From NCBI GenBank assembly GCA_964016885.1, contig OZ024765.1:15562001-15626000 (forward strand): 64,000 bases of DNA, written 5' to 3'. This document shows positions 5,781 through 63,452 of this stretch, piece by piece. The stretch comes from Eledone cirrhosa (lineage: Eukaryota). The notes beneath the pieces are model-generated. The model was not told the origin of the DNA. It made no database searches and worked only from the letters and a program-made list of their open reading frames with translations. Every line of letters begins with the position of its first letter. Positions within the stretch are counted from its first letter, which is position 1. Made by a program: the position numbers and the translations under genes.

Positions 5781-6143
<363 letters not shown>

Positions 6144-7686: not shown

Positions 7687-7878
7687 AGGGCGGTGGATTG
7701 GCAGTATCGGTAGAGGGTCGGACGCCATGCTTTCCAGCATAGTTACGCTCCTTTACGATCTGAGTTCAAATCCCGCCGAGGTTGACTTTGCCTTTCATCC
7801 TTACGGAGGTCGATAAAATAAAGTACCAGTAATGCACTGGGTAATTGCTGGCCTTGTGCCTAAAGTAGAAACAATTAT
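7687..7878 (+). mobile_element. Full-length Nin/Deu-domain SINE. Further copies: 12725-12910(-), 13112-13200(-), 17137-17325(+), 22181-22272(+), 27988-28248(-, x2), 32513-32585(-), 39652-39770(+), 50070-50203(-), 50439-50550(+), 50981-51165(+), 54063-54495(+, x2), 61538-61718(+), 63571-63630(-)
   Basis: A-box-like TGGCAGTATCGG, B box GTTCAAATCC, conserved CCTTTCATCCTTACGG..GTCGATAAAATAAAGTACCAG and an ATT tail. About 20 copies are in the window. Confidence 0.88.
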
Positions 7879-10252: not shown

Positions 10253-10441
10253 CATGAAGGAAATGTGGTAAGGAACCAAGTGGACCATAACGCACCAAAA
10301 TACTCAATACTTAGGGTAGTAGAGTGGGTAATAGGAACGAGTAGGACCCCGACGGCTGAGCTCAAGTCGTTTCGACGCCTAATTCTGGGCTGAATTAGCC
10401 GTCGATACGGCTTGAGCTCAGCCGTCGAGGTCCTACTGGTT

Positions 10442-10446
<5 letters not shown>
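10253..10446 (-). mobile_element. Family A fold-back element in (TA)n (half-hammerhead hairpin plus ~80 bp tail)
   Basis: Inverted arms of ~57 bp across 10331-10446 plus the unpaired tail GAAGGAAATGTGGTAAGGAACC...GAGTGGGTA. Confidence 0.88.
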
Positions 10447-11049: not shown

Positions 11050-11372
<323 letters not shown>

Positions 11373-11375
11373 CAT

Positions 11376-11470
<95 letters not shown>

Positions 11471-11838
11471 TATTTATAAATGTATATATATATATTAATC
11501 AATATATATATATATATATTTATAAATATATATATATATATATATAGTTTTAATATAGATGAGATTCTACAGGACTAGAACTGTTTCATTCATTAGAAAT
11601 CATCAATTAAAACTTTTATACTCTGCTATGTATTGAGTACCTTACTTAATGTGGTTACCTCCGATTCAACCCGGAATAACGTATATATATATATATATAT
11701 ATACATACATGTGTGTGTGTCTGTGTGTGTATGTTTGTACATGTATTTATGTGTATACACAAACACACACATATATATATATATATCTATACATATATAT
11801 ATGTGTTTGTATATATATATATACACATACATATATGT

Positions 11839-13304: not shown

Positions 13305-13520
13305 TGTTCCTATCCCTTTATATCCCTGTTCCCATCCCTATATATGTTCCTATCCCTTTCTGTTTTCCTTTATTTGACCGGTAGTAGCACACTGTTTTCT
13401 TTAGCCACGTCACTCGAGGGCGACCGTCAATGGTAGAAGATGCTGGATGGCGGTCGCCCTCGGGCCCTCGATTTTTAGCCCCATGGATTTTATCTACTAC
13501 ATTCACTAATTATATTTCGA

Positions 13521-13578
13521 ATACCTGATGATATCACCGAATTCATACGGAACCCGGTCATTGAAATGATCATAGTAT
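13521..13578 (+). ncRNA. Type I hammerhead ribozyme motif
   Basis: Stem I ATAC/GTAT, core CTGATGA at 13525-31, stem II ACCG/CGGT, GAAA at 13563-66, palindromic stem III ATGATCAT, AUA cleavage triplet with the cut after 13574. Confidence 0.8.
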
Positions 13579-14123
13579 AATAAACCTTTCAAGGATTTAC
13601 ACAAATCCAGCCTCCTGTCATTACATTATAATATTTAACTCCGTAATAGCACCAACCACTACAAAAACAAAGACGGTTGAACTGCTTTACGTTGAGTAAT
13701 CTCCATATTATTACATTGAGATTGACCATACGAAATTGACCAGCTCTATCCAGTGGTGAACCTCAAACCTGAATGCATATATATATATATATAAATGAAA
13801 ATAGAGAAATTCTTTCTGTGCGAAATTCTTTCATTGCTCACATTTCGACTAGGTTTGATGGTCTTTATTCTCTCTCGTTAACGATTTCACAGAACTTATA
13901 TTCATAGATTTCTGGGACTTGACTCCTTCTTCCTCACTTTTCGTTGCATTACCATCTTTGATTGTTTACAGTCTCGCTCGTTCCCCTTATTTACGTGTCC
14001 CAACGACATTCTTTAGCCGTTGCTCGCACCAACCGGAGGTGTATGGTCATTAAAGCGATGAAATACCAATGAAGGTTGGAAGATCACTGATGAAGGACTA
14101 AATTTATTCATATATATATTTAA

Positions 14124-14501: not shown

Positions 14502-14580
<79 letters not shown>

Positions 14581-14641
14581 ATGTATGTGAATATATACAT
14601 CAACCCGCCCGTCACCTCAATCTATCTTATTTCTCATTCCT

Positions 14642-14677
14642 TCTTCCGATGAAGGACTAGCGCCCGAAACGTTAAGA
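14642..14677 (+). ncRNA. Minimal type I hammerhead motif (CCGAUGA core variant) in a PLE-like terminus, 14600-14775
   Basis: TCTT-CCGATGA-AGG..CCC-GAAAC-GTT-AAGA gives stem I TCTT/AAGA, loopless palindromic stem III ACGT and a GUU triplet. The element is flanked by TA tracts. Confidence 0.7.
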
Positions 14678-14773
14678 CCCACTTCCTGCTATTTCAAGCG
14701 TTAATCCAATATATCCCTTCCTTATACTGTAACGATTGTGTTGTTATTTCTGTTTACCTTTTACATACATACA

Positions 14774-14834
<61 letters not shown>

Positions 14835-17539: not shown

Positions 17540-17705
17540 TAGGGACCCCGGTCCTATCATCTAATGTCTACAGCTGAGTAAACTGGAGCAGCGGGAAATA
17601 AAGTCTCTTGCTCAAGCAAACAACACTTCACCCGGTCGGAGAATTGAACTCACAACCTTTCGATTGCAAGCCCAATGCTCTAGCCACTAAGCTATACGCC
17701 TTCAC
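17540..17705 (-). mobile_element. CORE-like tRNA SINE (also 16990-17130 on the minus strand)
   Basis: Reverse complement of the TGAAGGCG..TTAGTGG..GAGTTCAATTC..TTGAGCAAGAGACTTTATTTC head. Confidence 0.75.
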
Positions 17706-17708
17706 ATA

Positions 17709-17903
17709 GATGGCAAGCGCCCCGACGGAATTACCATCTTCCCATTCGAAGGGGGTAGATGCCTCAACTGGTACGCCAAATGTTGTCACACGTTCTCCGC
17801 CTCCAACTTAGACGCTTCGGCCACCGACCCCAGGATTGCGACCCGCTATGTAGAGGGAAGGAAGATGAACATATACCAGAGATTGTCCGCCCGCTTTCTC
17901 CAG
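17709..17903 (+). mobile_element. CRE-clade restriction-like endonuclease fragment
   Basis: In frame it reads DGKRPDGITIFPFEGGRCLNWYAKCCHTFSASNLDASATDPRIATRYVEGRKMNIYQRLSARF, the DGKRPDG.T..P...G..L.WD.T motif of CRE elements, with the catalytic D apparently changed to Y. Confidence 0.8.
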
Positions 17904-18587
17904 ATCTGCCCTTCAATATATGCAAAGAAAGTAGAAACACCACAGGTGGCTCTTTGCGGTGGTAGCTGTTGCTTTTCGCTTCTTGTTTATCGCTGGAGCT
18001 GTTTAGATACAAGTAGTGTTAATGGTACTAGAGTGTGCTCTGATAGACAGATACAGACCAGAAATGTTTTATTTTATCGGCAGATGAGGACGAAGTGAAC
18101 TGCAGTATGTTTAAACTCTTTCGTTACCATAGCTAGTCTGAAATATCCTGTACATGTGCGCTGAAACTAAAGCAATTACAACGTCGAATAGTCTCATTAA
18201 CTTTTTTAAAACAGTTTTTTCTGATATCTTTTGAAAACCTGAAACGATTTTTCAGGCCTAATTGCTGATACTGCTTTTGGTTTTCAAATAATTTTGAAAA
18301 TAATTGGTTTGAAGAAAATCATATTAATACATTAACTTCCTACGTAATGAGAAACATTATAAAACATAAGAACGAATACTCAATCATCGCTAACCCAACG
18401 CCAGAGGCCCCGGACGGTGATGTTGAAAACTAACTGGCATGCAAACTTGGATGAATATAACCGTTGAGGACGAAATTGCATTCCCCGGGGCTGGTTGATG
18501 AAGATGTAGTATGCGTTGGTTCATTCGATCTATATATTTCATTTTTATTTTTTGTGTGCAAATTTGCTATACATACATATGTATATA

Positions 18588-19305: not shown

Positions 19306-19416
<111 letters not shown>

Positions 19417-19420
19417 TTTA

Positions 19421-19560
19421 TATACTCCAGTCCCACAGTTTGTGGGACTGGAGTATGCATAATATATCTTATATTATGCATACTCCAGTCCCACAAACTG
19501 TAGAGTGCTTCTTATCCGATATCTGCATTGCTTTATTGTACTACAATAAAACTCACCTCC

Positions 19561-19562
<2 letters not shown>
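19421..19562 (+). mobile_element. Double fold-back element in (TA)n
   Basis: ATACTCCAGTCCCACA occurs sense, antisense, sense. The tail contains GTAGAGTGCT. Confidence 0.75.
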
Positions 19563-19602
<40 letters not shown>

Positions 19603-20860: not shown

Positions 20861-20921
<61 letters not shown>

Positions 20922-21040
20922 TGTAATAAACAACATAAGGCAATTATTCCATTTACCAGTGGTTTCTTAAAAGCATCACATTTTGCTTTCAATCGTCAGA
21001 ATGAAAAAAATTTGCTTTCAATCATCAGAATGAAAAAATC

Positions 21041-21086
<46 letters not shown>

Positions 21087-21092
<6 letters not shown>

Positions 21093-21303
21093 ATGTTGAA
21101 AAGGCAACACATTAGAGAGAGATAGAGGGCGCTATCAATAAGACAGGGAAAAACCACCAGTATATCGATAGCGCACTGTGTCTCTCTCTCTACTGTGTTA
21201 CCTTTTCAACATATTGTATTTTAATGAGCTCAGGATTTCCTCTCCTTTGAGCACATTATTTATAGGGAATAGTGAGAGTCTATGGCTCCGTTAATTTATC
21301 GTT
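21087..21303 (+). mobile_element. Fold-back element in (TA)n
   Basis: Arms TACAATATGTTGAAAAGG...GCGCTATC and GATAGCGC...CCTTTTCAACATATTGTA span 21087-21218, followed by an ~85 bp tail. Confidence 0.75.
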
Positions 21304-21307
21304 ATAT

Positions 21308-21501
<194 letters not shown>

Positions 21502-21541
21502 TTCAAAATATTAACAAAATAGATATTCTTGTGATCAAGTA

Positions 21542-21608
21542 TATTTTATTATACATATTTCAGGGGTACTGATTTAATTTCAAGAGTACGTCCTCATCAG
21601 ATAAAATA
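21542..21608 (-). ncRNA. Type I hammerhead motif (left arm)
   Basis: The minus strand reads TATTTTAT-CTGATGA-GGACGTACT..AGTACCCCT-GAAA-TATGTAT-A-ATAAAATA. Confidence 0.75.
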
Positions 21609-21712
21609 AGATGATGCATGAGATACCCTGACATAGTAGATGGTTAACATTCAATTATGGTAGTGACTGAATCTTAATCACCTACTATGTCAGGGTATGT
21701 CATGCATCATCT

Positions 21713-21779
21713 TATTTTATCTGATGAGGACGTACTGTTGAAGTTAACTCAGTACCTATGAAATATGTATAATAAAATA
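21713..21779 (+). ncRNA. Type I hammerhead motif (right arm)
   Basis: 8 bp stem I TATTTTAT/ATAAAATA, CTGATGA at 21721-27, stem II GTACTG/CAGTAC, GAAA, near-palindromic stem III ATATGTAT, AUA triplet. Confidence 0.75.
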
Positions 21780-21926
21780 TACTTGATCACAAGAATATCT
21801 ATTTTGTTAATATTTTGAATTAATATTAATAATTCCGGAAAACCATTGTTGTTGAGTGCTTTCAATCTATTGTAAAACTCATTCTTTGATTTATTCATTG
21901 AATCTTGAACTTTAAATATTGAACTT

Positions 21927-21979
<53 letters not shown>

Positions 21980-24650: not shown

Positions 24651-24836
24651 ACGAAGGAAGTGTGGTAAGGAACCAGCTGGACCATAACGCACGAGAGTAC
24701 TCAATACTTAGGGTAGTAGAGTGGGTAATAGGAAAGTGTTTGACCCCGACGGCAGAGCTCAAGCCGTTTCGACGGCTATAGTGAAATAGCCGTCGAAACA
24801 TCTTGAGCTCTGCCGTCGGGGTCAAACATTTTCCTA
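24651..24836 (-). mobile_element. Family A fold-back element (GGCAGAGCTC subfamily)
   Basis: Same tail and hairpin as 10253-10446, with subfamily substitutions mirrored in both arms. Confidence 0.88.
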
Positions 24837-24842
24837 TATATA

Positions 24843-24998
24843 CGAGGGTAATCCCGAAAGTAAGGTCTCCAAAGCGATGGCGACGCAGAGAAGCTGTTCG
24901 TACGGCTGTTGGCAACGCTGTGGTGATTGGTGCTTCCTTCACTCCCAAACAAGCATTCGCGCGCTTCGCTTGGATGGTCCATCTTGGCTTGGTAGCCA
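24843..24998. mobile_element. Mariner-type element end, truncated
   Basis: TA-CGAGGGTAATCCCGAAAGTAAGGTCTCC matches the TIR of the MITE at 29682-29856. Confidence 0.65.
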
Positions 24999-25814: not shown

Positions 25815-25871
25815 GTTAATTTAAAACTGCACTATTCACAGGTGTTTTTTAACCTTCATATCATGTCTACC

Positions 25872-25942
25872 TATTTTATCTGATGAAAACACAAATATTA
25901 TTGCATGATGATATTTGTTTGTGAAATGCGCATAATAAAATA
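25872..25942 (+). ncRNA. Type I hammerhead ribozyme motif in a ~155 bp island between TA tracts
   Basis: Stem I TATTTTAT/ATAAAATA, CTGATGA at 25880-86, ~11 bp stem II ACAAATATTAT/ATGATATTTGT, GAAA at 25923-26, palindromic stem III ATGCGCAT, cut after 25934. Confidence 0.85.
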
Positions 25943-25972
25943 CATGGAACTCTTTTACCCATCTTTTGATCT

Positions 25973-26070
<98 letters not shown>

Positions 26071-29402: not shown

Positions 29403-29681
29403 GTTAAATTCGTGTGTCCAATAAATATACATAGTTGTATATTTATGGGATATATTCTATGTTAAATGAAAGTTATATTTTACACTCTAATAATTTCAAG
29501 GGCCAGAGAAAAATTCTGGGTTCGAAGTGGGCCATGAGAAAAAATGGGTTGGGAACTACTTCTCTTGACTACAAATTATCTCCATCCTTTCGCTGCACTT
29601 TCTAGCATAAGGAGTGACATTGTAGTGGCATCTCTATCAATATAAAGTACACACACAAACACACACACACATATATACATA

Positions 29682-29856
29682 CGAGGGCATTCCCAAAAGT
29701 AAGGTATCCTTCCGATATTGAAACTTTTCCGTTAAAATATGTGGGTGGTTCTTCGAGAAACCTCAGGAACCAAAATGCAGAGAGCATCCAGAGTGATCCA
29801 CCGATCTTTACGCATGTTTTCCTCGGAAGGAGACCTTACTTTTGGGATTACCCTCG
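29682..29856. mobile_element. Tc1/mariner-type MITE
   Basis: TA target-site duplication on both sides and ~24 bp TIRs CGAGGGCATTCCCAAAAGTAAGGT / ACCTTACTTTTGGGATTACCCTCG. Confidence 0.85.
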
Positions 29857-29900
29857 TAAATACATAATACATACATATATCTATCTATCTATCTATCTAT

Positions 29901-30138
29901 CTAAGGCGGGTAAAATTCTCGAGATCGGGGGTCGAGTTCTCTCCAGCGGTCTCTGTCCCTCATTATCGCTGCCATGTCCTGCGTCTCCAACAGACCAGTG
30001 TCTGTCCTTAGGGCATCAACATACGTTAACCTTGGTCTTCCTCTTCTAGTGTGTCCATGTAGGGGCTCCCAACGGAGCACTGAGTACAATGTCAACTCTG
30101 GATGTTGGTGAGCATGTCCAGCTTACATCAGTCTCCTA
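29901..30138 (-). mobile_element. RTE/RTEX-like LINE 3' fragment
   Basis: VLRWEPLHGHTRRGRPRLTYVDALRTDTGL...MRDRDRW followed by a (TAGA)n tail. Same family as 32199-32490. Confidence 0.8.
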
Positions 30139-30152
30139 TTTCATACTTGACC

Positions 30153-30180
<28 letters not shown>

Positions 30181-30185
<5 letters not shown>

Positions 30186-30373
30186 AGTAAGTAAGACCCC
30201 GACGGCTGAGCTCAAGCCGTTTCGACGGCTAATTCTGTACAGAATTAGCCGTCGAAACGGCTTGAGCTCAGCCGTCGGGGTCTTACTTACTCCTATTACC
30301 CACTCTACTACCCTAAGTATTGAGTACTTTGGTGCGTTATGGTCCACCTGGTTCCTTACCATTTTTCAATCGC
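30181..30373 (+). mobile_element. Family A element with a perfect 116 bp palindrome
   Basis: 30181-30238 is the exact reverse complement of 30239-30296 (centre CTGT|ACAG). The tail runs on to (TA)n. Confidence 0.92.
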
Positions 30374-30472
30374 TATATATATATATATATATATATATAT
30401 TGGGTCAAGTATGAAATTTGTGAACATTTGTATACTTTTTAGAAATTTCTACAAATGTCATACTTGACGACT

Positions 30473-30514
<42 letters not shown>

Positions 30515-30516
<2 letters not shown>

Positions 30517-30677
30517 CGATGGAACCAGGTGGACGATAACGCATCAGAGTACTCAATACTTAGGGTAGGAGAGTGGGTAATATGATAATGTCCAAGACTG
30601 AGGAGCTCAAGCCGTTTCGACGGCTATTTCTGGACTCAAAGTCCAGAATTCTGCCGTCGGGGTCTTGAACATTTTCA
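30515..30677 (-). mobile_element. Family A copy, degenerate
   Basis: Tail plus partly deleted arms, centre TTCTGGACT-CAA-AGTCCAGAA. Confidence 0.75.
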
Positions 30678-30710: not shown

Positions 30711-30891
30711 TAAAATAAAGTTAAATAAAAAGTCAAATGTTTAAAACTTAGCTTCGTTTATTTTAAACATTTGACTTTTTATTTAACTTTATTTTACATT
30801 ACTCCGGAGTAACCAAACCAACCTGCGCACTTCGTCGAGTGCTCCAGCCTGCATACTGTGGTGTTGGTATACAACCAACATATACTCAAAA
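30711..30891 (+). mobile_element. Fold-back element (36 bp perfect arms, 14 nt loop) plus tail
   Basis: Arms at 30711-30746 and 30761-30796. The tail holds ATTACTCCGG and GTCGAGTGCT. Confidence 0.75.
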
Positions 30892-30960
<69 letters not shown>

Positions 30961-31412
30961 CCAATGTAATTATCTGGCTCATAAACGAATTGTAAAACTA
31001 AAACCTCTATCATCCTCATCTATTGTACTCGTAAAAGCTGAACAACTTGCTAGACCAATAATATTAAACCTGGAGGCCACCTTAAATTTAATTCTTTGTT
31101 TTGACTGTTACTTAACGACCTACTGGAAAATTATTGCTTCAAAGTGAACAAGAGGGTTTGAGACTCGTCGAAAGTTCTTTGAGACAGATACACACATAAT
31201 TAGATTTATATATATATATATGTCTTTATGTGTATGTGTATATATATGTAGTAATGATAATAAAAGCGCAGACTAAAATCCAAAGAGCGCTCGATAAGGA
31301 TAAATAGATATCAAATATATAAGAAACCTAGAGCAAATATTTATTAAAATAACTTTACCCCTTAACTGTGAAAGCAACGATTCTTTGCTTAAACTTTAAT
31401 ATTATTTTAATA

Positions 31413-31702: not shown

Positions 31703-31818
31703 ATAGGAAAAGAGTCAGGACCCGACCGCTGAGCTCTGGCCGTTTCGACTCAGAGATCCGAACTGAGTTCGGATCTAGCTGTTGAAACGGCCGGAGCTCA
31801 CCCCTCGGGATCCTGATT

Positions 31819-31823
<5 letters not shown>
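31703..31823. mobile_element. Family A relative, tail-less symmetric hairpin in (TA)n
   Basis: GGCCGTTTCGAC...AGATCCGAACT-G-AGTTCGGATCT...GTTGAAACGGCC, with both arms ending at TA. Confidence 0.75.
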
Positions 31824-32198: not shown

Positions 32199-32490
32199 CT
32201 AGGGCGGGTAAAATTCCCGAGATCCGTGGACGAGTTCTCTCCAGCGGTCTCTGTCCCTCATTATCGCTGCCATGTCCTGCGTCTCCAACAGACCAGTGTC
32301 TGTCCTTAGGTCATCAACATACGTTAACCTTGGTCTTCCTCTTCCAGTCTGTCCATGTAGGGACTCCCACAGGAGCACTGAGTGCAATGTCAACTCTGGC
32401 TGTCGGTGACCATGTCCAGCTAACCTCAGTCTCCTCTGTGTCACTTTTGAGCTGACTTTTAGGAGGCTCCTGTACAGCTCTGAGGTTTTC
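32199..32490 (-). mobile_element. RTE/RTEX-like LINE 3' fragment
   Basis: ELYRSLLKVSSKVTQRRLRLAGHGHRQPELTLHSVLLWE...GRGRPRLTYVDDLRTDTGL. Confidence 0.82.
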
Positions 32491-32845: not shown

Positions 32846-33229
32846 TTTCAATGTTTGTATACATACGTGACCTCCTTTCCAACGCAAGAGACATACTTTT
32901 TGCTTTGATTCTGTTTTAATATGATTTTAATTTTTGAATTTAAATTACCATTCAGAAATAATATAATATATGTCACCCCACTGTGCATCAATATATACTT
33001 ATGTATCTGTATGTCTCTTGCGTTGGAAAGGCAGAATTCTAGGAGAAGGAAAACTGTGATATAACACCTGCAACCCTGATGGTATCCAATGATGTTTACT
33101 TGTTCTTCTTTTTGGTAAATATCATCTTGGTTAAGAGAGTGGGACTGGCTTTGTGCAGTGCCTTTGCTCACTATAAGAGCTTCACGGCACAGGCATTGCT
33201 TTATTTCTTGAGATCTCTCTGCACTTGTC

Positions 33230-33410
33230 GTCACATGGTACCATGGGCCCAGCACTATGTGTCAATAATTGTCACAGGTGTAGTGTCTGTACCAGAGATT
33301 TCAAGTCGCTGGCTGGACTAAAAAGTCACACTCGTTCAGCGCATCGGTAGGGGTTCTCCTACATGGATATAAAGTAGTGGCCGTACTCGAAAACGAGTTG
33401 GCAGCCACCA
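33230..33410 (+). mobile_element. RTE-type LINE extreme 3' end with a C2H2-like finger
   Basis: HRCSVCTRDFKSLAGLKSHTRSAHR-stop, then a short 3' UTR with the hairpin ACTCGAAAACGAGT, then TA. Confidence 0.65.
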
Positions 33411-33670: not shown

Positions 33671-34208
33671 CATACACAACGCATGATATATACCATATAA
33701 TATACATCACATATAATATATAATATCTCCGCTAGGTTTCTGTAAATCCGAAATCGAGAAAATCCACTTGTAGGGGTCTGCAAGTTAATGGTTTTTGTAA
33801 GATAGAACAAGGAATTTACTTCATCAACAAGTTTTTCGTTCTCGTCCGCCCGGGTGTGAATGCTAGCAGTAAGCACTTCAAGAAGGCACATGGTTTTCCG
33901 GAAGGGAGGTAAGCCCCGGTTTTGGCGGTCAATTCAAATTTGGAACAAAGGAATAAAATTCCTTTACACAAACCGAATTAAGCACTCAACTAGAAGTTAT
34001 AAAACAAACATAAACAATTAATCAATCAATAGAAATGTTTCCTGTTTGCTGAACATTATGAATGTTGGATTCTTATATAATTCCGGTCATAATCAGGAAC
34101 TGTTTATACGGAGCAGTTGCCGGTCCAGCAAAAATTGAAGATTAGAATTGGTGTGTGTGTGTGTGATTGTCTGAGTGTGAGGATATATATATTTATATAT
34201 ATATATAT

Positions 34209-34399
34209 ATAGGAACGAGTAGGACCCCGACGGCTGAGCTCAAGCCTTTTCGACGGCTAATTCTGGACAGAATTAGCCGTCGAAACGGCTTGAGCTCAGC
34301 CGTCGGGGTCCTTCTCGTTCCTATTACCCACTCTACTACCCTAAGTATTGAGTACTTTGGTGCGTTATGGGCCACCTGGTTCCTTACCACATTTCCTTC

Positions 34400-34403
<4 letters not shown>
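34209..34403 (+). mobile_element. Family A fold-back element
   Basis: Arms span 34209-34324 with centre TTCTGGACAGAA, then the tail runs to (TA)n. Confidence 0.9.
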
Positions 34404-34488
<85 letters not shown>

Positions 34489-35381: not shown

Positions 35382-35630
35382 CAATATATTAACAAATGGA
35401 AACTATATTTATAAAACCATATTTATTTCATTATATATATTTCAAGGGCCACCAGAGCAAACTATGGTGCGATTTGATCAGATAAAATATAATGTCGGTG
35501 AGTTTTATAAATAAATATTGACATACCCTTAAAAAATGCATCCATTCTGGTTGGAATCTGCCGTTGAGTGCTTTATATCAGTTATAAAAATATGTTGCTT
35601 GTTGTATCCTAACAAATTAAATATAACCTC

Positions 35631-35730
<100 letters not shown>

Positions 35731-36005: not shown

Positions 36006-36196
36006 AACGAAGGAAATGTGGTAAGGAACCAGGTGGACCATAACGCACCAAAGTACACAATACTTGAGGTAGTAGAGTGGGTAATAGGAACCAGTAAGAC
36101 CCCGACAGTTGAGCTCAAGCCGTTTCGGCGGCTAATTCAGTCCAGAATTAGCCGTCGAAACGGCTTGAGCTCAGCTGTCGTTGTCTTACTGGTTCC

Positions 36197-44535: not shown

Positions 44536-44602
<67 letters not shown>

Positions 44603-44632
44603 AAATGAAAATCCGAAGGCAAGATAAAATTC

Positions 44633-44726
44633 CAATCATTTAATCACGACGCATGTTTCAATAAGAGATAGATCGATTGTGAAGCCATGATCGATTATCA
44701 CTTATCTCATCAGGTGAAAATGAATT
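44633..44726 (-). ncRNA. Type I hammerhead ribozyme motif with long stem II
   Basis: The minus strand reads TCATTT-TCAC, CTGATGA, stem II GATAAG.GATA.ATCGAT/ATCGAT.TATC.CTTATT, GAAAC-ATGC-GTC, GTGA-TT-AAATGA. The canonical GUC triplet is at 44650-44648. Confidence 0.88.
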
Positions 44727-45298
44727 GTCTTCAAATTCTTGATATGAGGGAGAAAAATAACGATGTTCTCTGACAGATTTCATTCCCTCATATGAAGACA
44801 CACCAGTCAGAGACACGGCAACTGCTATTAACTTCAGTTGATGGTCATAAAAGTTGTCAGATTTCTATTGCTGCAAAAGACGCTGGACATCAATCAAATC
44901 TGTAGGGATATAGCTGGTCGCAAGTTAATGATACTTATACTCCGTTTTACATCATCTGGCTGTTCCCTTGAATGGAATTGGAGATATACAAAATCGTGAA
45001 GAACTTATATATTGCTGAGATAAATTTATTGGATCATTTTACACATCCAATAATGCACCTTACTATATAACAACTATATATATATATCAGGTCAGTAAAA
45101 AATCTTTTCCTGGGTCCTGTATTTTCGTTGCTCTGGTATTGCGGTCGGACTGCCGACCGCTATATCTGATTTGCTAAGCTGTTTGAACATAATGTTATTA
45201 CTCCGGGGTCTTACCTGATCTGAGTGCTAAAGCTACAATCGAATAAGCATACACGCTACCTTGGCCGTGTACTAGAGCTTCGTCTATGCTGTACTAAA

Positions 45299-45350
<52 letters not shown>

Positions 45351-45826: not shown

Positions 45827-46309
45827 GCAAGTTTGAAGAAATATTAGATAAAATATATACAGTATTTCTTCTCCCTAGTCCGTATAAATCATCCACATAA
45901 AAAATCATTTAAACGAGGCTAAAATTTGAAAATGTAACTATAAAGAAATAATAGACAAATGATACAGACTATCTTCCGCGATGTACAGCCATATAATATT
46001 TATCTAGTTATTCCTATTAGCTTCTAGAAATTGACTAGACAAATAATTAACTAAACGTAGTTAGGTACAAAATATGAGTTTGAAGAAAAAATGCACATAA
46101 ATTTTACCAAAATTCCTCTAGATACATGTGCTCTGATGATCGCCTACCAGTGTGAACAGACTGTCAGCCTCTCTCCCTTGTTTCGCCGAAAGTAAGTAAG
46201 TGACATTTCCACTAATTTAAAACTAATAGCGTATGGTCTTCTAAATGTTTTTAATTAAACATACAGTATATTGCTAAATATACTATACATACTTTCATAT
46301 ATCTATAAA

Positions 46310-46410
46310 TAAAGGAAGTGTGGTAAGGAACCAGTTGGACCATAACTGGTTTAGTTCTGAACTAGCTGTCGAAACGGCCAGTGCTCAGCCGTCGGGGACC
46401 TGACTCTTTT

Positions 46411-46413
<3 letters not shown>
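46310..46413 (-). mobile_element. Family A copy, internally deleted
   Basis: The tail start AAGGAAGTGTGGTAAGGAACC is joined to GTCGAAACGGCC..GCCGTCGGGGACC. Confidence 0.75.
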
Positions 46414-46459
<46 letters not shown>

Positions 46460-46464
<5 letters not shown>

Positions 46465-46676
46465 CAAGTTTAACCCCGACGGCAGAGCTCAGGCCGTTTC
46501 GACGGCCATTTCTGGACTCCTTAGTCTGGACTTCTGGAGTCAGAAATAGCCGTCTAAACGGCTTGAGCTCTGCCGTCGGGGTTAAACTTTTTCCTATTAG
46601 CCACTCTACTACCTTAAGTATAGAGTTCTCTGGTACGTTATAGTCCTTCTGGTTCCTTAACACACTTCCTTCGTTA
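46460..46676 (+). mobile_element. Family A element with the longest central stem-loop
   Basis: Centre ATTTCTGGACTCC-TTAGTCTGGACTTCT-GGAGTCAGAAAT, tail ending CCTTCGT. Confidence 0.88.
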
Positions 46677-46922: not shown

Positions 46923-47120
46923 AACGAAGGAAATGTGGTAAGGAACCAAGTGGACAATAACGCACCAAAGTACTCAATACTTAGGGTAGTAGAGTGGGTA
47001 ATAGGAACAAGTAAGACCCCGACGGCTGAGCTCAAGCCATTTCGACGGCTAATTCTGTACTCAATTAGTCGAATTAGCCGTCGAAACGGCTTGAGCTCAG
47101 CCGTCGGGGTCTTACTTGTT

Positions 47121-47124
<4 letters not shown>
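46923..47124 (-). mobile_element. Family A fold-back element
   Basis: Tail plus near-perfect arms with a 17 nt loop. Confidence 0.9.
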
Positions 47125-49922: not shown

Positions 49923-50688
49923 CAACAACAACAACAAAAACAATAGGAAAAGGAAGAAGAAAAAGAAGAAAAAAAAGTAGTGTCATAACAAACAATAAAC
50001 AATAAACTGATAATACTTTCTTTAATTCCGACATTTTGGTAATTTAGTTTCGTTTTGTAGAATAATAATAATTGCTTCTACTTTTGGCACAGGGCCAGCA
50101 ATTGACCCCAGTAAATTACTGGTACTTTATTTTATCGACCCCGTAAGGATGAAAGATAAAGTCAACCTCGGCGGGATTTGAACTCAGATCGTAAAGGGAC
50201 GTACGATATATATATATATATATATAGTAATAATAATAAATTTGAAGACTAAAATCCAAAGAGCGCTCGATAAGGATAAATATATATCAAATATATAAGA
50301 ACCGTAGAGCAAATATTTATTAAAATAACAGATTAAAGTTTAAGCAAAGAATCGCTGCTTTCACCCTTAACGAGATTGACTTTGTTAGTTTCAGAAGATC
50401 CCGTTAAGGGTGAAAGCAGCGATTCTTTGATTAAACTTAAATCCCACCGAAGTTAACTTTGCCTTTCATCCCTACGGGGTCGATAAAATATAGTACCAGT
50501 AATGTACTGGGGGTAATTGCTGGCCCTGTGCCAAAAGTAGAAACAATTATTATTATTCTACAAAACGAAACTAAATTACCAAAATGTCGGAATTAAAGTA
50601 TTATCAGTTTATTGTTTATTGTTTGTTATGACACTACTTCTTTTTCTTCTTTTTTCTTCTTCCTTTTCCTCGTGTTGTTGTTGTTGTT
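49923..50688. repeat. ~255 bp inverted duplication of SINE plus flanking DNA, around a fold-back element
   Basis: 49923-50179 is the reverse complement of 50439-50688. The inner element at 50236-50443 has its own arms at 50331-50376 and 50398-50443. Related ends lie near 13210, 31270, 48875 and 59100. Confidence 0.85.
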
Positions 50689-55014: not shown

Positions 55015-55815
55015 TTTTAGAAACTTCTTGTGACGCTAAACTCCGCCAGTTGCAGACTGCGTATCAACATGTGATATCTCTCTCCACAAGGTCGATCACC
55101 AACAGCAGAATTTAAAGAGCAAAGATAAAGTCCAGTCCATAGGTTGACATGGTCAAGCCGCCGTTTTGGCTGCCGGCCTCTGCTTCTCCTACCAGCCGAC
55201 CTTCCTTCCAGGCATATATAATACATTTCGATCACCAACAGCAGAGTTCAAAGAGCAAATATCTAGTCAAGTCTATAGGTTGACATTATGAAGCCATAGT
55301 TCTGGCTGCCGGCCTCTGCTTCACCTAGCAGCCAACCTTCCTTCCAGGAATATATAATACATTTCGATCACCAACAGCAGAGTTCAAAGAGCAAAGATCT
55401 AGTCCAGTCCATAGGTCAAGCCATAGTTCTGGCTTTCGGCATCTGCTTCTCTTACCAGCCAACCTTCCTACCAGGCATAACCTACTCACACCATGAATTG
55501 ATCTTTTATATGACCGTATAGTTTAAGTATTCTTGACTTGACAATTGATGTAATTGGTCTAAGTCTGGTAATGTGGAGCAGCTCACTGATAGAGATACGG
55601 TCGCTGAGCCACTTGCCAGTCATAAGTCTCATGATGTGGTTCTGGAATGTAGAGAGCTTCTGAAGTGACCTTGTCGTCCAATTAACACAGTCAAGACCAT
55701 ATAACACAACTGGTAGGATGTAAATATCGAAGATCTTAGCCTTCAAATAATAGAAAACTCGTTTTGATGTTAGTACTTCCTTGTTCTTGTTGAAAGCTGC
55801 CCAACCTAGAGCGAT
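55015..55815 (-). mobile_element. RTE LINE 3' fragment with three tandem terminal units (136 bp period)
   Basis: IALGWAAFNKNKEVLTSK...LKAKIFDIYILPVVLYGLD...LKLYGHIK is typical post-RT RTE sequence. Units start at 55094, 55230 and 55366. Confidence 0.88.
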
Positions 55816-56379
55816 GCAATACTGCGCAGCAACCATTCCATTGTTGTTTGATGATAGTTTGTGGCCAAGATATATTTACAAACTCCGTGACTTGAGCAAT
55901 TTGCTGGTCGTAGATTGTTCTTATCAGTTGTCATACATTTTGTTTTGCAGTTGTTGTGATTTTAGAAACTTATCAGTCATTTATTACGTATCCCACAATG
56001 ATTTGTATTAACTAAACTAATTTCAGAACAAAACAGCTACGACAAGAAACATATTTCTTTGTCAGAAAAGTTGTTATCAGAAATAGCAATATATATTTCA
56101 ACTTCTGAGATATAAGTCGATTTTATAAAAGCTTAAAAAAAAACAAACCCTAGAATAACCAGTTAAAAATCTGCCATAGAAGAATGTGATGTAAAGGTAA
56201 GCAAGCTGCTACCTCCATTATACAACTCTCGTATATCATCGTGAGAATCTCATCCGACAGGTGGGATTCTGGGATATATAGAGCTTAGAAAGAAAAAAAA
56301 CAAATTATTTTAAAAAGAAAATTTGCAAAAAGGAAATGCTCACATTTTCACTCCCTTGTCGTTGTATGGCAGCGTTTGT

Positions 56380-58706: not shown

Positions 58707-58737
<31 letters not shown>

Positions 58738-59176
58738 TTACCACCATGTTGTTTGTTTACTTTCCTCTGTCCCGATAACTTAATTTAGTTATTGCTCGCA
58801 CTGCTTTTAGGTATCTAGTCTTTAGTGCGAAGAAATACCAATGAAATACCAGACTACTGATGATGGACATTCCTGTTTCTCGGTCTATTTCCATTCATAT
58901 GTTCATATTCGCAACAACGCAGCACGCCATTTTTCATTCATATATATATATATATCTATATCTATATATATATATATACTCGCTACCCAAGGAGACCTCT
59001 TGTTGGGTCAAACAACGCCGTACGCTAAAACTATCCACAATACGGAGTATTCACAACCTCTAACTGGATTACCTATAACGATAACTTGTTATCACTGAGG
59101 GCTCGATAAGGATAAATATATATCAAACATAGGAACCCTAGAGCAAATATTTATATTTTAATATATATATTATCAA

Positions 59177-63196: not shown

Positions 63197-63281
<85 letters not shown>

Positions 63282-63282
63282 G

Positions 63283-63452
63283 TAAATATGTTTTGAAACA
63301 GTGAGCAGGTTTGAAATTAGAAAATAGAATAGCTTTCAACGTATTTTTTTAGTAAAGGAATTTTAGTCTGATAATGGGGGATCAATACTCATTTTTTCCC
63401 ATTTATCTGAGGGTTCTTAACCCCATTATCAGACTAAAATTTCTTTAGTCAT
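63283..63452. mobile_element. Fold-back element in (TA)n, family B copy 2
   Basis: Same left flank as 5926-6105, arms TAAAG.AATTTTAGTCTGATAATGGGG, spacer inverted relative to copy 1. Confidence 0.8.

What the first reader, a model, noticed from the sequence alone, without database searches (positions are those of the whole stretch)
30181..30373. 11-copy TA-inserted family whose palindrome is a hammerhead ribozyme folded back on its own stem II
Seen: copies at 10253, 24651, 27642, 30181, 30515, 31703, 34209, 36006, 46310, 46460 and 46923, nearly all abutting (TA)n. Intact copies read short inverted arm - central stem-loop - C GAAAC GGC TTGAGCTCA GCC GTC GGGGTC - ~95 nt tail. That is the 3' half of a type I hammerhead: GAAA core, stem III ACGGC/GCCGT with a palindromic TGAGCTCA loop, a GUC triplet and the stem I 3' strand. 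No copy keeps CUGANGA, and its place is taken by the antisense of GAAAC/stem III. Copy-specific substitutions are mirrored in both arms (GTAAGTAAG at 30186, ACAAGTAAG at 47007, GGCAGAG at 24751 and 46481), while the loop differs between copies. Known: Penelope-like elements carry type I HHRs in their pseudo-LTRs and often show inverted 5' ends. Inference: the cDNA snaps back at ribozyme stem II during target-primed reverse transcription, copies itself, and rejoins the target at a TA microhomology (TTCCTA|TA). The result would be a fixed-size, MITE-looking, catalytically dead element made afresh at each insertion. I do not know of this ribozyme-defined fold-back being described.
Basis: partly seen in the sequence, partly recalled or inferred. 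Interest (0 to 1): 0.82.

Follow-up and report, generated by a model that had tools for sequence, protein, structure and literature searches.

The report
Penelope-made palindromic repeats in TA microsatellites
This is an abundant 190-base repeat, an inverted arm plus a direct copy with a tail, sitting in TA microsatellites; its tail carries a hairpin shared with Hydra-type Penelope retrotransposons, so it is likely a non-coding passenger of such an element, probably made by copying one RNA from both ends of a DNA cut rather than by a ribozyme folding back.

Summary
The family is real: 11 copies, arms mirrored within copies (p=0.0004), very abundant in same-label runs. The tail holds a bulged hairpin (RCTC-stem-NN-GAGYACT) seen in published Hydra-clade consensi and in 73 of 120 metagenome loci with intact hammerheads, some attached to a Hydra-type RT/GIY-YIG ORF. 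In those relatives the inverted arm ends 3-7 nt before the hairpin (mode -6), exactly as here. The proposed mechanism fares worse. Mirrored variants are common subfamily alleles, not private. No CUGANGA parent was seen; unfolded copies begin at the central loop. Either arm can be the longer one, and in two window copies the inverted arm shares nothing with the direct part, which one cDNA snapping back cannot give. Best reading: a roughly 140-nt Hydra-mobilised RNA is reverse-transcribed from both ends of a cut in (TA)n, from two fixed start sites, and the two cDNAs join head-to-head at or near the RNA's 5' end. Inverted pseudo-LTR plus tail is known; the conserved hairpin, the fixed -6 start and hammerhead-less passenger families were not found in print. 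The parent ORF was not found.

The parts
30156..30183 (.). left (TA)n target
30182..30238 (-). inverted arm: reverse complement of unit positions about 2-60; outer end at a fixed TA
   Evidence: 10 of 11 inverted arms end at unit position 60
30239..30295 (+). direct arm (5' part of the unit RNA, inferred)
30254..30282 (+). hammerhead-like 3' half: GAAA, stem III, GUC, GGGGTC; CUGANGA missing, so predicted inactive
   Evidence: sequence; shuffle chance 0.6%; no Rfam hammerhead hit
30282..30291 (+). hypervariable segment, mirrored at 30186-30195; predicted to be a loop closed by GGGT/ACCC in the unit RNA
30296..30373 (+). tail, present on one side only
30302..30328 (+). bulged tail hairpin RCTC-4bp stem-TT-GAGYACT shared with Hydra-clade Penelope-like elements
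30374..30399 (.). right (TA)n target
10253..10443 (-). intact copy; direct arm complete, inverted arm shorter (mirror image of the 36006 junction)
24651..24834 (-). intact copy, older subfamily, short loop
27630..27745 (-). decayed copy: inverted arm joined directly to the tail
30516..30676 (-). copy with internal deletions in both arms and a shorter 3' end
31706..31821 (+). two arms, no tail
34212..34401 (+). intact copy, used as query for read laying
36007..36196 (-). intact copy; inverted arm complete, direct arm shorter
46305..46412 (-). complete inverted arm joined to only the last 35 nt of the tail
46462..46676 (+). intact older copy with short pieces of the unit's 5' end repeated in the junction
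46924..47122 (-). intact copy with both arms reaching the unit's 5' end

Best explanation
The repeat is an inverted arm joined head-to-head to a direct copy with a tail, and it is likely a non-autonomous passenger of a Hydra-clade Penelope-like retrotransposon, probably made at insertion by two reverse transcriptions of one short RNA. Shown: a unit of about 140 nt starts at AGT(C/T)C in the central loop, carries a hammerhead-like 3' half and ends in a tail with a conserved bulged hairpin; the inverted copy always stops 6 nt before that hairpin; either arm may be truncated at the junction. Inferred: the Hydra RT/GIY-YIG protein binds the hairpin, cuts both strands of (TA)n, primes one cDNA at the tail end and one at the -6 site, both run to or near the RNA's 5' end, and their 3' ends are joined by microhomology or template jumping. 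Arms are mirrored because both come from the same source gene. CUGANGA is missing because the RNA likely begins downstream of it (the start resembles an initiator, TTAGTY; untested), so the ribozyme would be a dead remnant, not the cause of the fold.
For: Tail hairpin seen by eye in Hydra-2_Amil, Hydra-2_Ajap and (with one mismatch) Hydra-1_Crog consensi. Strict motif: 6 hits in the window (4 family, 2 unrelated), all 41-48 nt before (TA)n, against 0.04 expected in 300 shuffles. A hammerhead-plus-motif pattern returned 120 loci; 73 have stem II and the inner stem, which the pattern did not ask for; 21 representatives covary (21 double-changed cells vs 5.2, 0 of 500 shuffles). L001 holds a 741-aa open frame with Hydra motifs (RWR, DKT, YRDD, CxCX5C, YIG) between two hammerhead repeats, with the hairpin in its 5' leader; 9 other loci of the 120 hit it by tblastn. 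In 22 of 25 loci with an inverted copy the arm ends 3-7 nt before RCTC, 13 at -6; here -6 in 10 of 11. Those arms are mirrored too (0.9 vs 3.1 mismatches per 48 nt, 0 of 20000 permutations, 19 loci). Inverted arm longer than direct: L038 by 228 nt, 46310 and 27642; three read joints leave from the unit's 5' end into different tail positions. Junction loops 0-2 nt in 7 of 17. In vitro a Penelope protein cuts and extends both strands from two RNA start sites that delimit the tail (PMC11167929).
Against: No parent ORF is linked to this family: no genome held, no Hydra-like hit in the window, family patterns absent from three collections. The locus set was chosen with a pattern built knowing this element, so the model search (top 5 window hits are family copies, E 1e-5 to 2e-3) is partly circular; unselected columns alone give only p=0.025. 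Longer inverted arms and flipped spacers could also come from later recombination or deletion between arms. The short-loop junction is common genome-wide (depth about 284,000 at the loop vs about 1.2 million beside it in X1), which also fits inheritance from palindromic masters. Only 1 of 20 inverted copies in the main related family has the longer inverted arm. The tail (78 nt) is longer than the 30-40 nt given for Penelope elements. No target duplication can be read inside (TA)n.
Confidence: 0.58

Rival explanations
1. Hydra-mobilised, but the palindrome is inherited: a few palindromic master copies per subfamily are transcribed whole and copied straight through; flips and asymmetric copies arise later by recombination and deletion between the arms.
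For: Mirrored variants are common alleles at similar frequency in both arms; the 16-nt loop class is abundant with two main alleles; perfect palindromes are known to be unstable (general knowledge).
Against: Five young copies show four or five different junctions; breakpoints fall exactly at the unit's 5' end in 46310 and in three read joints; unfolded copies start at the loop; related families with visible 9-15 nt target duplications show the same variable junctions; repeated mirroring across subfamilies still needs arm re-copying.
Confidence: 0.2
2. One reading: a parent with a full hammerhead is copied from the tail, the cDNA snaps back at stem II, copies itself and rejoins the target at TA.
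For: GAAA-stem III-GUC follows the central stem directly and lies 63 nt before GAGYACT, inside the 60-78 nt range of intact relatives (range partly set by the pattern); a second window family (50331-50443) also has GAA plus a stem right after its central palindrome and a 29-nt spacer; self-priming was proposed for Penelope inverted repeats.
Against: The inverted arm cannot exceed the direct arm under this model but does (46310, 27642, L038); spacer in both orientations; 0-2 nt loops in relatives; none of the 18 loose-end rows shown has CTGANGA or lies at the start of stem II (472 rows hidden); relatives with intact hammerheads join mostly upstream of the ribozyme, not at stem II.
Confidence: 0.13
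3. A DNA element: a Helentron-type (HINE) or MITE-type non-autonomous transposon with a 5' hairpin end.
For: Fixed size, inverted repeat at one end, a 9-nt complement between the 5' end and the 3' subterminus in two copies, TA flanks.
Against: HINEs have 12-15 bp subterminal repeats 38-60 nt from the 3' end and insert at TT (PMC4067079), not met; no terminal inverted repeats; 5' truncation, unfolded and tail-less forms; shared hairpin and -6 end with ORF-linked Hydra loci.
Confidence: 0.06

Closest known systems
Hydra clade of Penelope-like elements (Craig et al. 2021, PMC8557442)
   Same: (TA)n target; hammerhead near the 3' end with GAAAC and a paired stem III; tail hairpin in the published consensi; inverted 5' copy noted for Penelope-13_HM; an octopus member, Hydra-1_Obim, is listed.
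   Different: No ORF, no CUGANGA; about 190 nt; no match of three family motifs in the held part of the supplement (file cut). The paper passages read do not mention the hairpin.
Inverted pLTR + pLTR + tail of Penelope in Adineta vaga (Arkhipova et al. 2013, PMC3846280)
   Same: Head-to-head inverted copy lacking the tail, palindrome at the junction, TATA and initiator-like motif in the pLTR.
   Different: They infer self-priming on an antisense template; tail 31 nt; low copy and ORF-bearing.
Poseidon PAc in vitro (Frangieh et al. 2024, PMC11167929)
   Same: Both strands cut and extended; two RNA start sites bound the tail; hammerhead cleavage not needed.
   Different: Start sites lie inside the ORF in an AC-rich stem-loop; in the two parts read, inverted products are not modelled.
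Non-LTR retrozymes (PMC7229834 listing; bioRxiv 10.64898/2026.07.22.740005, part 1 read)
   Same: Non-autonomous, Penelope-derived, type I hammerhead.
   Different: Retrozymes are tandem with complete ribozymes; this is dispersed, inverted and lacks the core.
L1 twin priming (recalled, no call)
   Same: Two primers on one RNA give an inverted 5' segment joined by microhomology.
   Different: In L1 the second primer lands internally and the segments do not overlap; here both starts are fixed and the arms overlap, giving a palindrome.
DINE-1/HINE (PMC4067079)
   Same: Short, abundant, inverted repeat at the 5' end.
   Different: TT target, 12-15 bp subterminal repeats and rolling-circle partner not met.

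Membership tests
Hydra-clade PLE (autonomous) | single RT + C-terminal GIY-YIG ORF with RWK, DKT, CxCX5C | tested here: not met
   element is 190 nt; no tblastn hit of Hydra-type ORFs in the window; Pfam on 150 of 187 window frames found no RT or GIY-YIG, but Pfam also misses the L001 ORF
Hydra-clade PLE (autonomous) | canonical hammerhead near the 3' end | tested here: not met
   3' half only; Rfam none while control L011 hits Hammerhead_1 at E 0.001
Hydra-clade PLE, non-autonomous passenger | insertion in (TA)n | tested here: met
   10 of 11 copies; the window is very TA-rich
Hydra-clade PLE, non-autonomous passenger | inverted 5' copy without tail plus direct copy with tail | tested here: met
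Hydra-clade PLE, non-autonomous passenger | shared cis signal (tail hairpin, arm end at -6); feature derived here | tested here: met
   circularity caveat
Hydra-clade PLE, non-autonomous passenger | same tail on an autonomous partner in the same genome | not testable with these tools
   no genome held
Hydra-clade PLE, non-autonomous passenger | target-site duplication | tested here: inconclusive
   unreadable in (TA)n here; 9-15 nt duplications in several related loci
Type I hammerhead | CUGANGA core | tested here: not met
   absent in all 11 copies and in the 18 loose-end rows shown
Type I hammerhead | GAAA, stem III, NUH | tested here: met
   sequence; 0.6% in shuffles
Type I hammerhead | stems I and II with 5' strands independent of the palindrome | tested here: inconclusive
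   the only 5' strands are the inverted arm itself; GGGT can instead pair with ACCC of the tail
HINE/Helentron | 12-15 bp subterminal repeats, 38-60 nt from the 3' end; TT target | tested here: not met
   9-nt complement in two copies only, about 20 nt from the end; TA flanks
MITE (TA-duplicating) | inverted repeats at both termini | tested here: not met
   the inverted repeat covers only the first 114 nt
Non-LTR retrozyme | tandem units each with a complete hammerhead | tested here: not met

The most novel reading that the evidence does not exclude
Hydra-clade Penelope elements use one conserved bulged hairpin to set two reverse-transcription starts, prime from both ends of the cut, and join the cDNAs at the RNA's capped 5' end; this genome holds many unrelated hammerhead-less families that keep only this hairpin, forming an unrecognised class of Penelope-dependent, MITE-looking short elements rebuilt as palindromes at every insertion.
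Probability: 0.45. Interest if true: 0.7.

Novelty: new variant of a known kind. Interest (0 to 1): 0.52.

Why it matters
How Penelope elements make their tandem and inverted insertions and pick microsatellites is named as open by Craig et al. 2021. A 27-nt hairpin with a fixed start 6 nt upstream gives a direct substrate for the in vitro assay that now exists, and a way to tell twin priming from self-priming. It also gives a diagnostic for reclassifying abundant 'unknown' or MITE-like repeats: this one family covers 2.9% of the window and eight unrelated TA-flanked window elements carry the looser motif.

Tried and rejected
Own genome not held. Family-specific patterns: 0 matches in metagenome, genome and viral contigs. 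Earlier scan notes: nothing by sequence or place. Run search: no RNA holder listed; 16 small-share rows in other labels were not interpreted; one laid (X19) gave 0. The raw reads are reduced-representation and many end at AATT in the loop (34262/34271), so they rarely span the young loop and are weak for finding parents. Rfam on the window and the element gives only microRNA-type hairpin noise (150 of 324 rows shown); it also misses the by-eye hammerhead at 21721. Pfam and PDB sequence searches do not recognise the L001 or L011 ORFs; identity rests on motifs and Atlas neighbours. One search had an off-by-one error in arm register; one search replaces it. An initiator 6-14 nt before CTGA is clear in the main related family and L001 but absent in most other related families, so that step stays weak. 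A cap-derived G before AGT in four junctions was noticed, not tested. Literature: searches found no description of the hairpin, of twin priming in Penelope elements or of this family; Repbase/Dfam entries and subscription papers could not be seen, and the Craig supplement is cut.

Full report
Observation. The window is animal-type, microsatellite-rich DNA (41% masked); I take it for an octopus-like genome from recalled repeat motifs only, untested. No genome is held. All 11 listed copies are present, 7 intact, covering 2.9% of the window. Copy 30181 is a perfect 114-nt palindrome followed by a 78-nt tail, between (TA)n runs; 10 of 11 copies have TA runs within 14 nt of both ends. Arms resemble their own partner more than others: 20 mismatches against a mean of 42 over all 5040 pairings of 7 copies, p=0.0004. 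But 13 of 16 mirrored changes lie in a 10-nt outer segment that is about five times more variable than the tail among the 5 young copies, and the core alone is not significant in those 5 (p=0.2).

Genome-wide view from reads. Laid on 34200-34413 at 80% likeness, the family drew 19,051 contigs in X1, 483 in X4, 25,345 of 12.5 million reads in X21 and none in X19. Seven left/right variant pairs among the 40 rows shown (191 hidden) occur at similar frequencies in both arms, 11-42%, so most 'copy-specific' variants are subfamily alleles. Of 18 loose-end rows shown (472 hidden) none holds CTGANGA or lies at the start of stem II; rows before 34268, 34270 and 34274 show AT-rich or (TA)n flank followed by TTAGTC or TTAGTTC, that is unfolded copies that start in the central loop (consensus agreement only 0.44-0.72). 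Three of 15 joints shown (52 hidden) leave from 34268, the unit's 5' end on the inverted arm, into different tail positions. The reads are reduced-representation and cut at AATT in the loop, so a rare parent is not excluded.

Link to Hydra-clade Penelope elements. Craig et al. (PMC8557442; passages, section 11 and supplement parts 2, 52, 53 read; supplement cut) describe Hydra elements as TA-targeting with canonical hammerheads and list an octopus member. By eye, three of the six consensi given end in RCTC-stem-NN-GAGCACT 65-75 nt after GAAAC, and Hydra-1_Ajap has it at its 5' end. This element has ACTC TACT loop AGTA TT GAGTACT 63 nt after GAAAC. The strict motif occurs 6 times in the window (4 family, 2 unrelated), all 41-48 nt before (TA)n, against 0.04 in 300 shuffles; a looser version, widened after seeing the data, occurs 12 times (8 unrelated), all 39-74 nt before (TA)n, against 1.2 in shuffles and an 11-12% positional background. 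Twenty-one representatives that I picked for diversity covary in the inner stem (relatedness inflates this control). L001 is a 741-aa open frame between two hammerhead repeats, with RWR, DKT, YRDD, CxCX5C and YIG motifs, Atlas neighbours carrying GIY-YIG and RT families, and the hairpin in its 5' leader; the downstream repeat stops just before the hairpin. Nine other loci hit this ORF. A model from these loci ranks five family copies top in the window (E 1e-5 to 2e-3), but the pattern was designed knowing the element, and unselected columns give only p=0.025.

Same architecture in the relatives. I examined 25 of the 73 loci with an inverted hit (five with only short or in-motif hits left out). 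In 22 the inverted arm ends 3-7 nt before RCTC, 13 at -6; the script reported ends only within -15 to +3, and 3 loci had none there. Here 10 of 11 inverted arms end at the same site, 6 nt before ACTC. Their arms are mirrored too (0.9 vs 3.1 mismatches per 48 nt, 19 loci, 6 of the 25 left out; 0 of 20,000 permutations). Among 43 distinct copies of the main family with enough upstream DNA (of 60), 32 direct copies start 5-14 nt before CTGA, mode -11, which is the A of an initiator-like TCATT about 28 nt after a TATA run; the pattern hides copies truncated further in, two rows are one locus, and three or four are a diverged subfamily. Twenty have an inverted arm: in 5 the direct arm is longer by over 15 nt, in L038 the inverted arm is longer by 228 nt; perfect centres have 0-2 nt loops in 7 of 17; several show 9-15 nt target duplications.

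Mechanism. One cDNA primed at the tail and snapping back can only mirror what it has already copied, needs a loop, and leaves the spacer in sense. In the window, 46310 has a complete inverted arm (unit -2 to 60) joined to unit 101-135 only, 27642 is similar, 10253 and 36006 are mirror-image junctions, 46923 has both arms reaching the start, and 31703 has two arms and no tail. Frangieh et al. (PMC11167929, parts 1-2 of 4 read) show a Penelope protein cutting and extending both strands from two RNA start sites that bound the tail, with hammerhead cleavage dispensable. The simplest reading is therefore two cDNAs, one from the tail end and one from -6, joined at or near the RNA's 5' end. Shown: anatomy, fixed ends, variable junctions, shared hairpin. 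Inferred: protein binding to the hairpin, two-ended priming, RNA start in the loop. Later recombination or deletion between arms can mimic the asymmetries, and the abundant short-loop class may be inherited, so that rival keeps 0.2.

The hammerhead. GAAA-stem III-GUC sits where Hydra relatives have it and arises in 0.6% of shuffles, so a remnant is plausible. But Rfam sees none (control L011 hits at E 0.001), the only 5' strands of stems I and II are the inverted arm itself, and in the unit RNA GGGT is predicted to pair with ACCC of the tail, putting the hypervariable segment in a loop. Of nine other motif-related window elements tested only 21499 has a full hammerhead, so the ribozyme looks dispensable.

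Prior art. Inverted pLTR plus tail, palindromic junctions and self-priming are in Arkhipova et al. 2013 (PMC3846280, passages) and Craig et al. 2021, who call the formation of these structures unresolved. Cervera and de la Pena 2014 (part 1 of 4) note hammerhead pairs on opposite strands 100-700 bp apart. Retrozyme preprint part 1 of 5, HINE paper passages and a curation guide's passages were read; other papers only as listings. Searches found no account of the hairpin, the -6 start, twin priming in Penelope elements or this family; Repbase, Dfam and subscription papers were not visible.

Verdict. A real, abundant repeat; likely a non-coding passenger of Hydra-clade Penelope elements; a new variant of a known architecture. 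Interest 0.52.

Noticed in passing
window 21497-21930 (+); relative at 25815-25979: 328-nt palindrome with an intact CTGATGA...GAAA hammerhead in each arm; arm ends about 7 nt before a looser tail motif; a likely Hydra-type insertion with the ribozyme kept.
   Followed up: partly
window 50240-50443 (-), 31248-31411 (-), 59097-59154: Second family with a central palindrome followed directly by GAA and a stem, no CTGATGA, a 29-nt spacer and a tail motif; 31248 is an inverted arm joined to a truncated direct copy.
   Followed up: partly
window 21089-21302, 30713-30891, 19411-19563, 11547-11681, 35441-35633, 45088-45301, 11237-11373: Unrelated TA-flanked elements, some palindrome plus tail, that carry the strict or loose tail motif and no hammerhead.
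   Followed up: partly
window 5927-6103 and 63276-63450: Two copies of another palindrome-plus-tail family whose 40-nt spacer is in opposite orientations; no tail motif found.
   Followed up: no
window 44601-44800 (-), 14571-14776, 58735-58939, 13306-13776, 20918-21043 (-): Hammerhead-like cores near TA-flanked ends, without the tail motif; probably ends of other Penelope clades.
   Followed up: no
window 29680-29858, 24841-24870, 30401-30474: Small TA-flanked elements with true terminal inverted repeats; copy 24651 abuts one such end and copy 30181 lies between inverted ends of another.
   Followed up: no
window 7690-7878 and many copies; 29904-30137, 32203-32435, 55489-55875; 17691-18095: An abundant 180-nt dispersed repeat and fragments that look like non-LTR retrotransposon ORF ends (recalled resemblance; Pfam negative).
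   Followed up: no
window 33177-33347 (+): Weak C2H2 zinc-finger match (E 0.0004, below cut-off).
   Followed up: no
L001:136-250; L046; L089: L001 has the tail hairpin twice in its 5' leader; L046 and L089 have hammerhead and motif upstream of a Hydra-type ORF start.
   Followed up: partly
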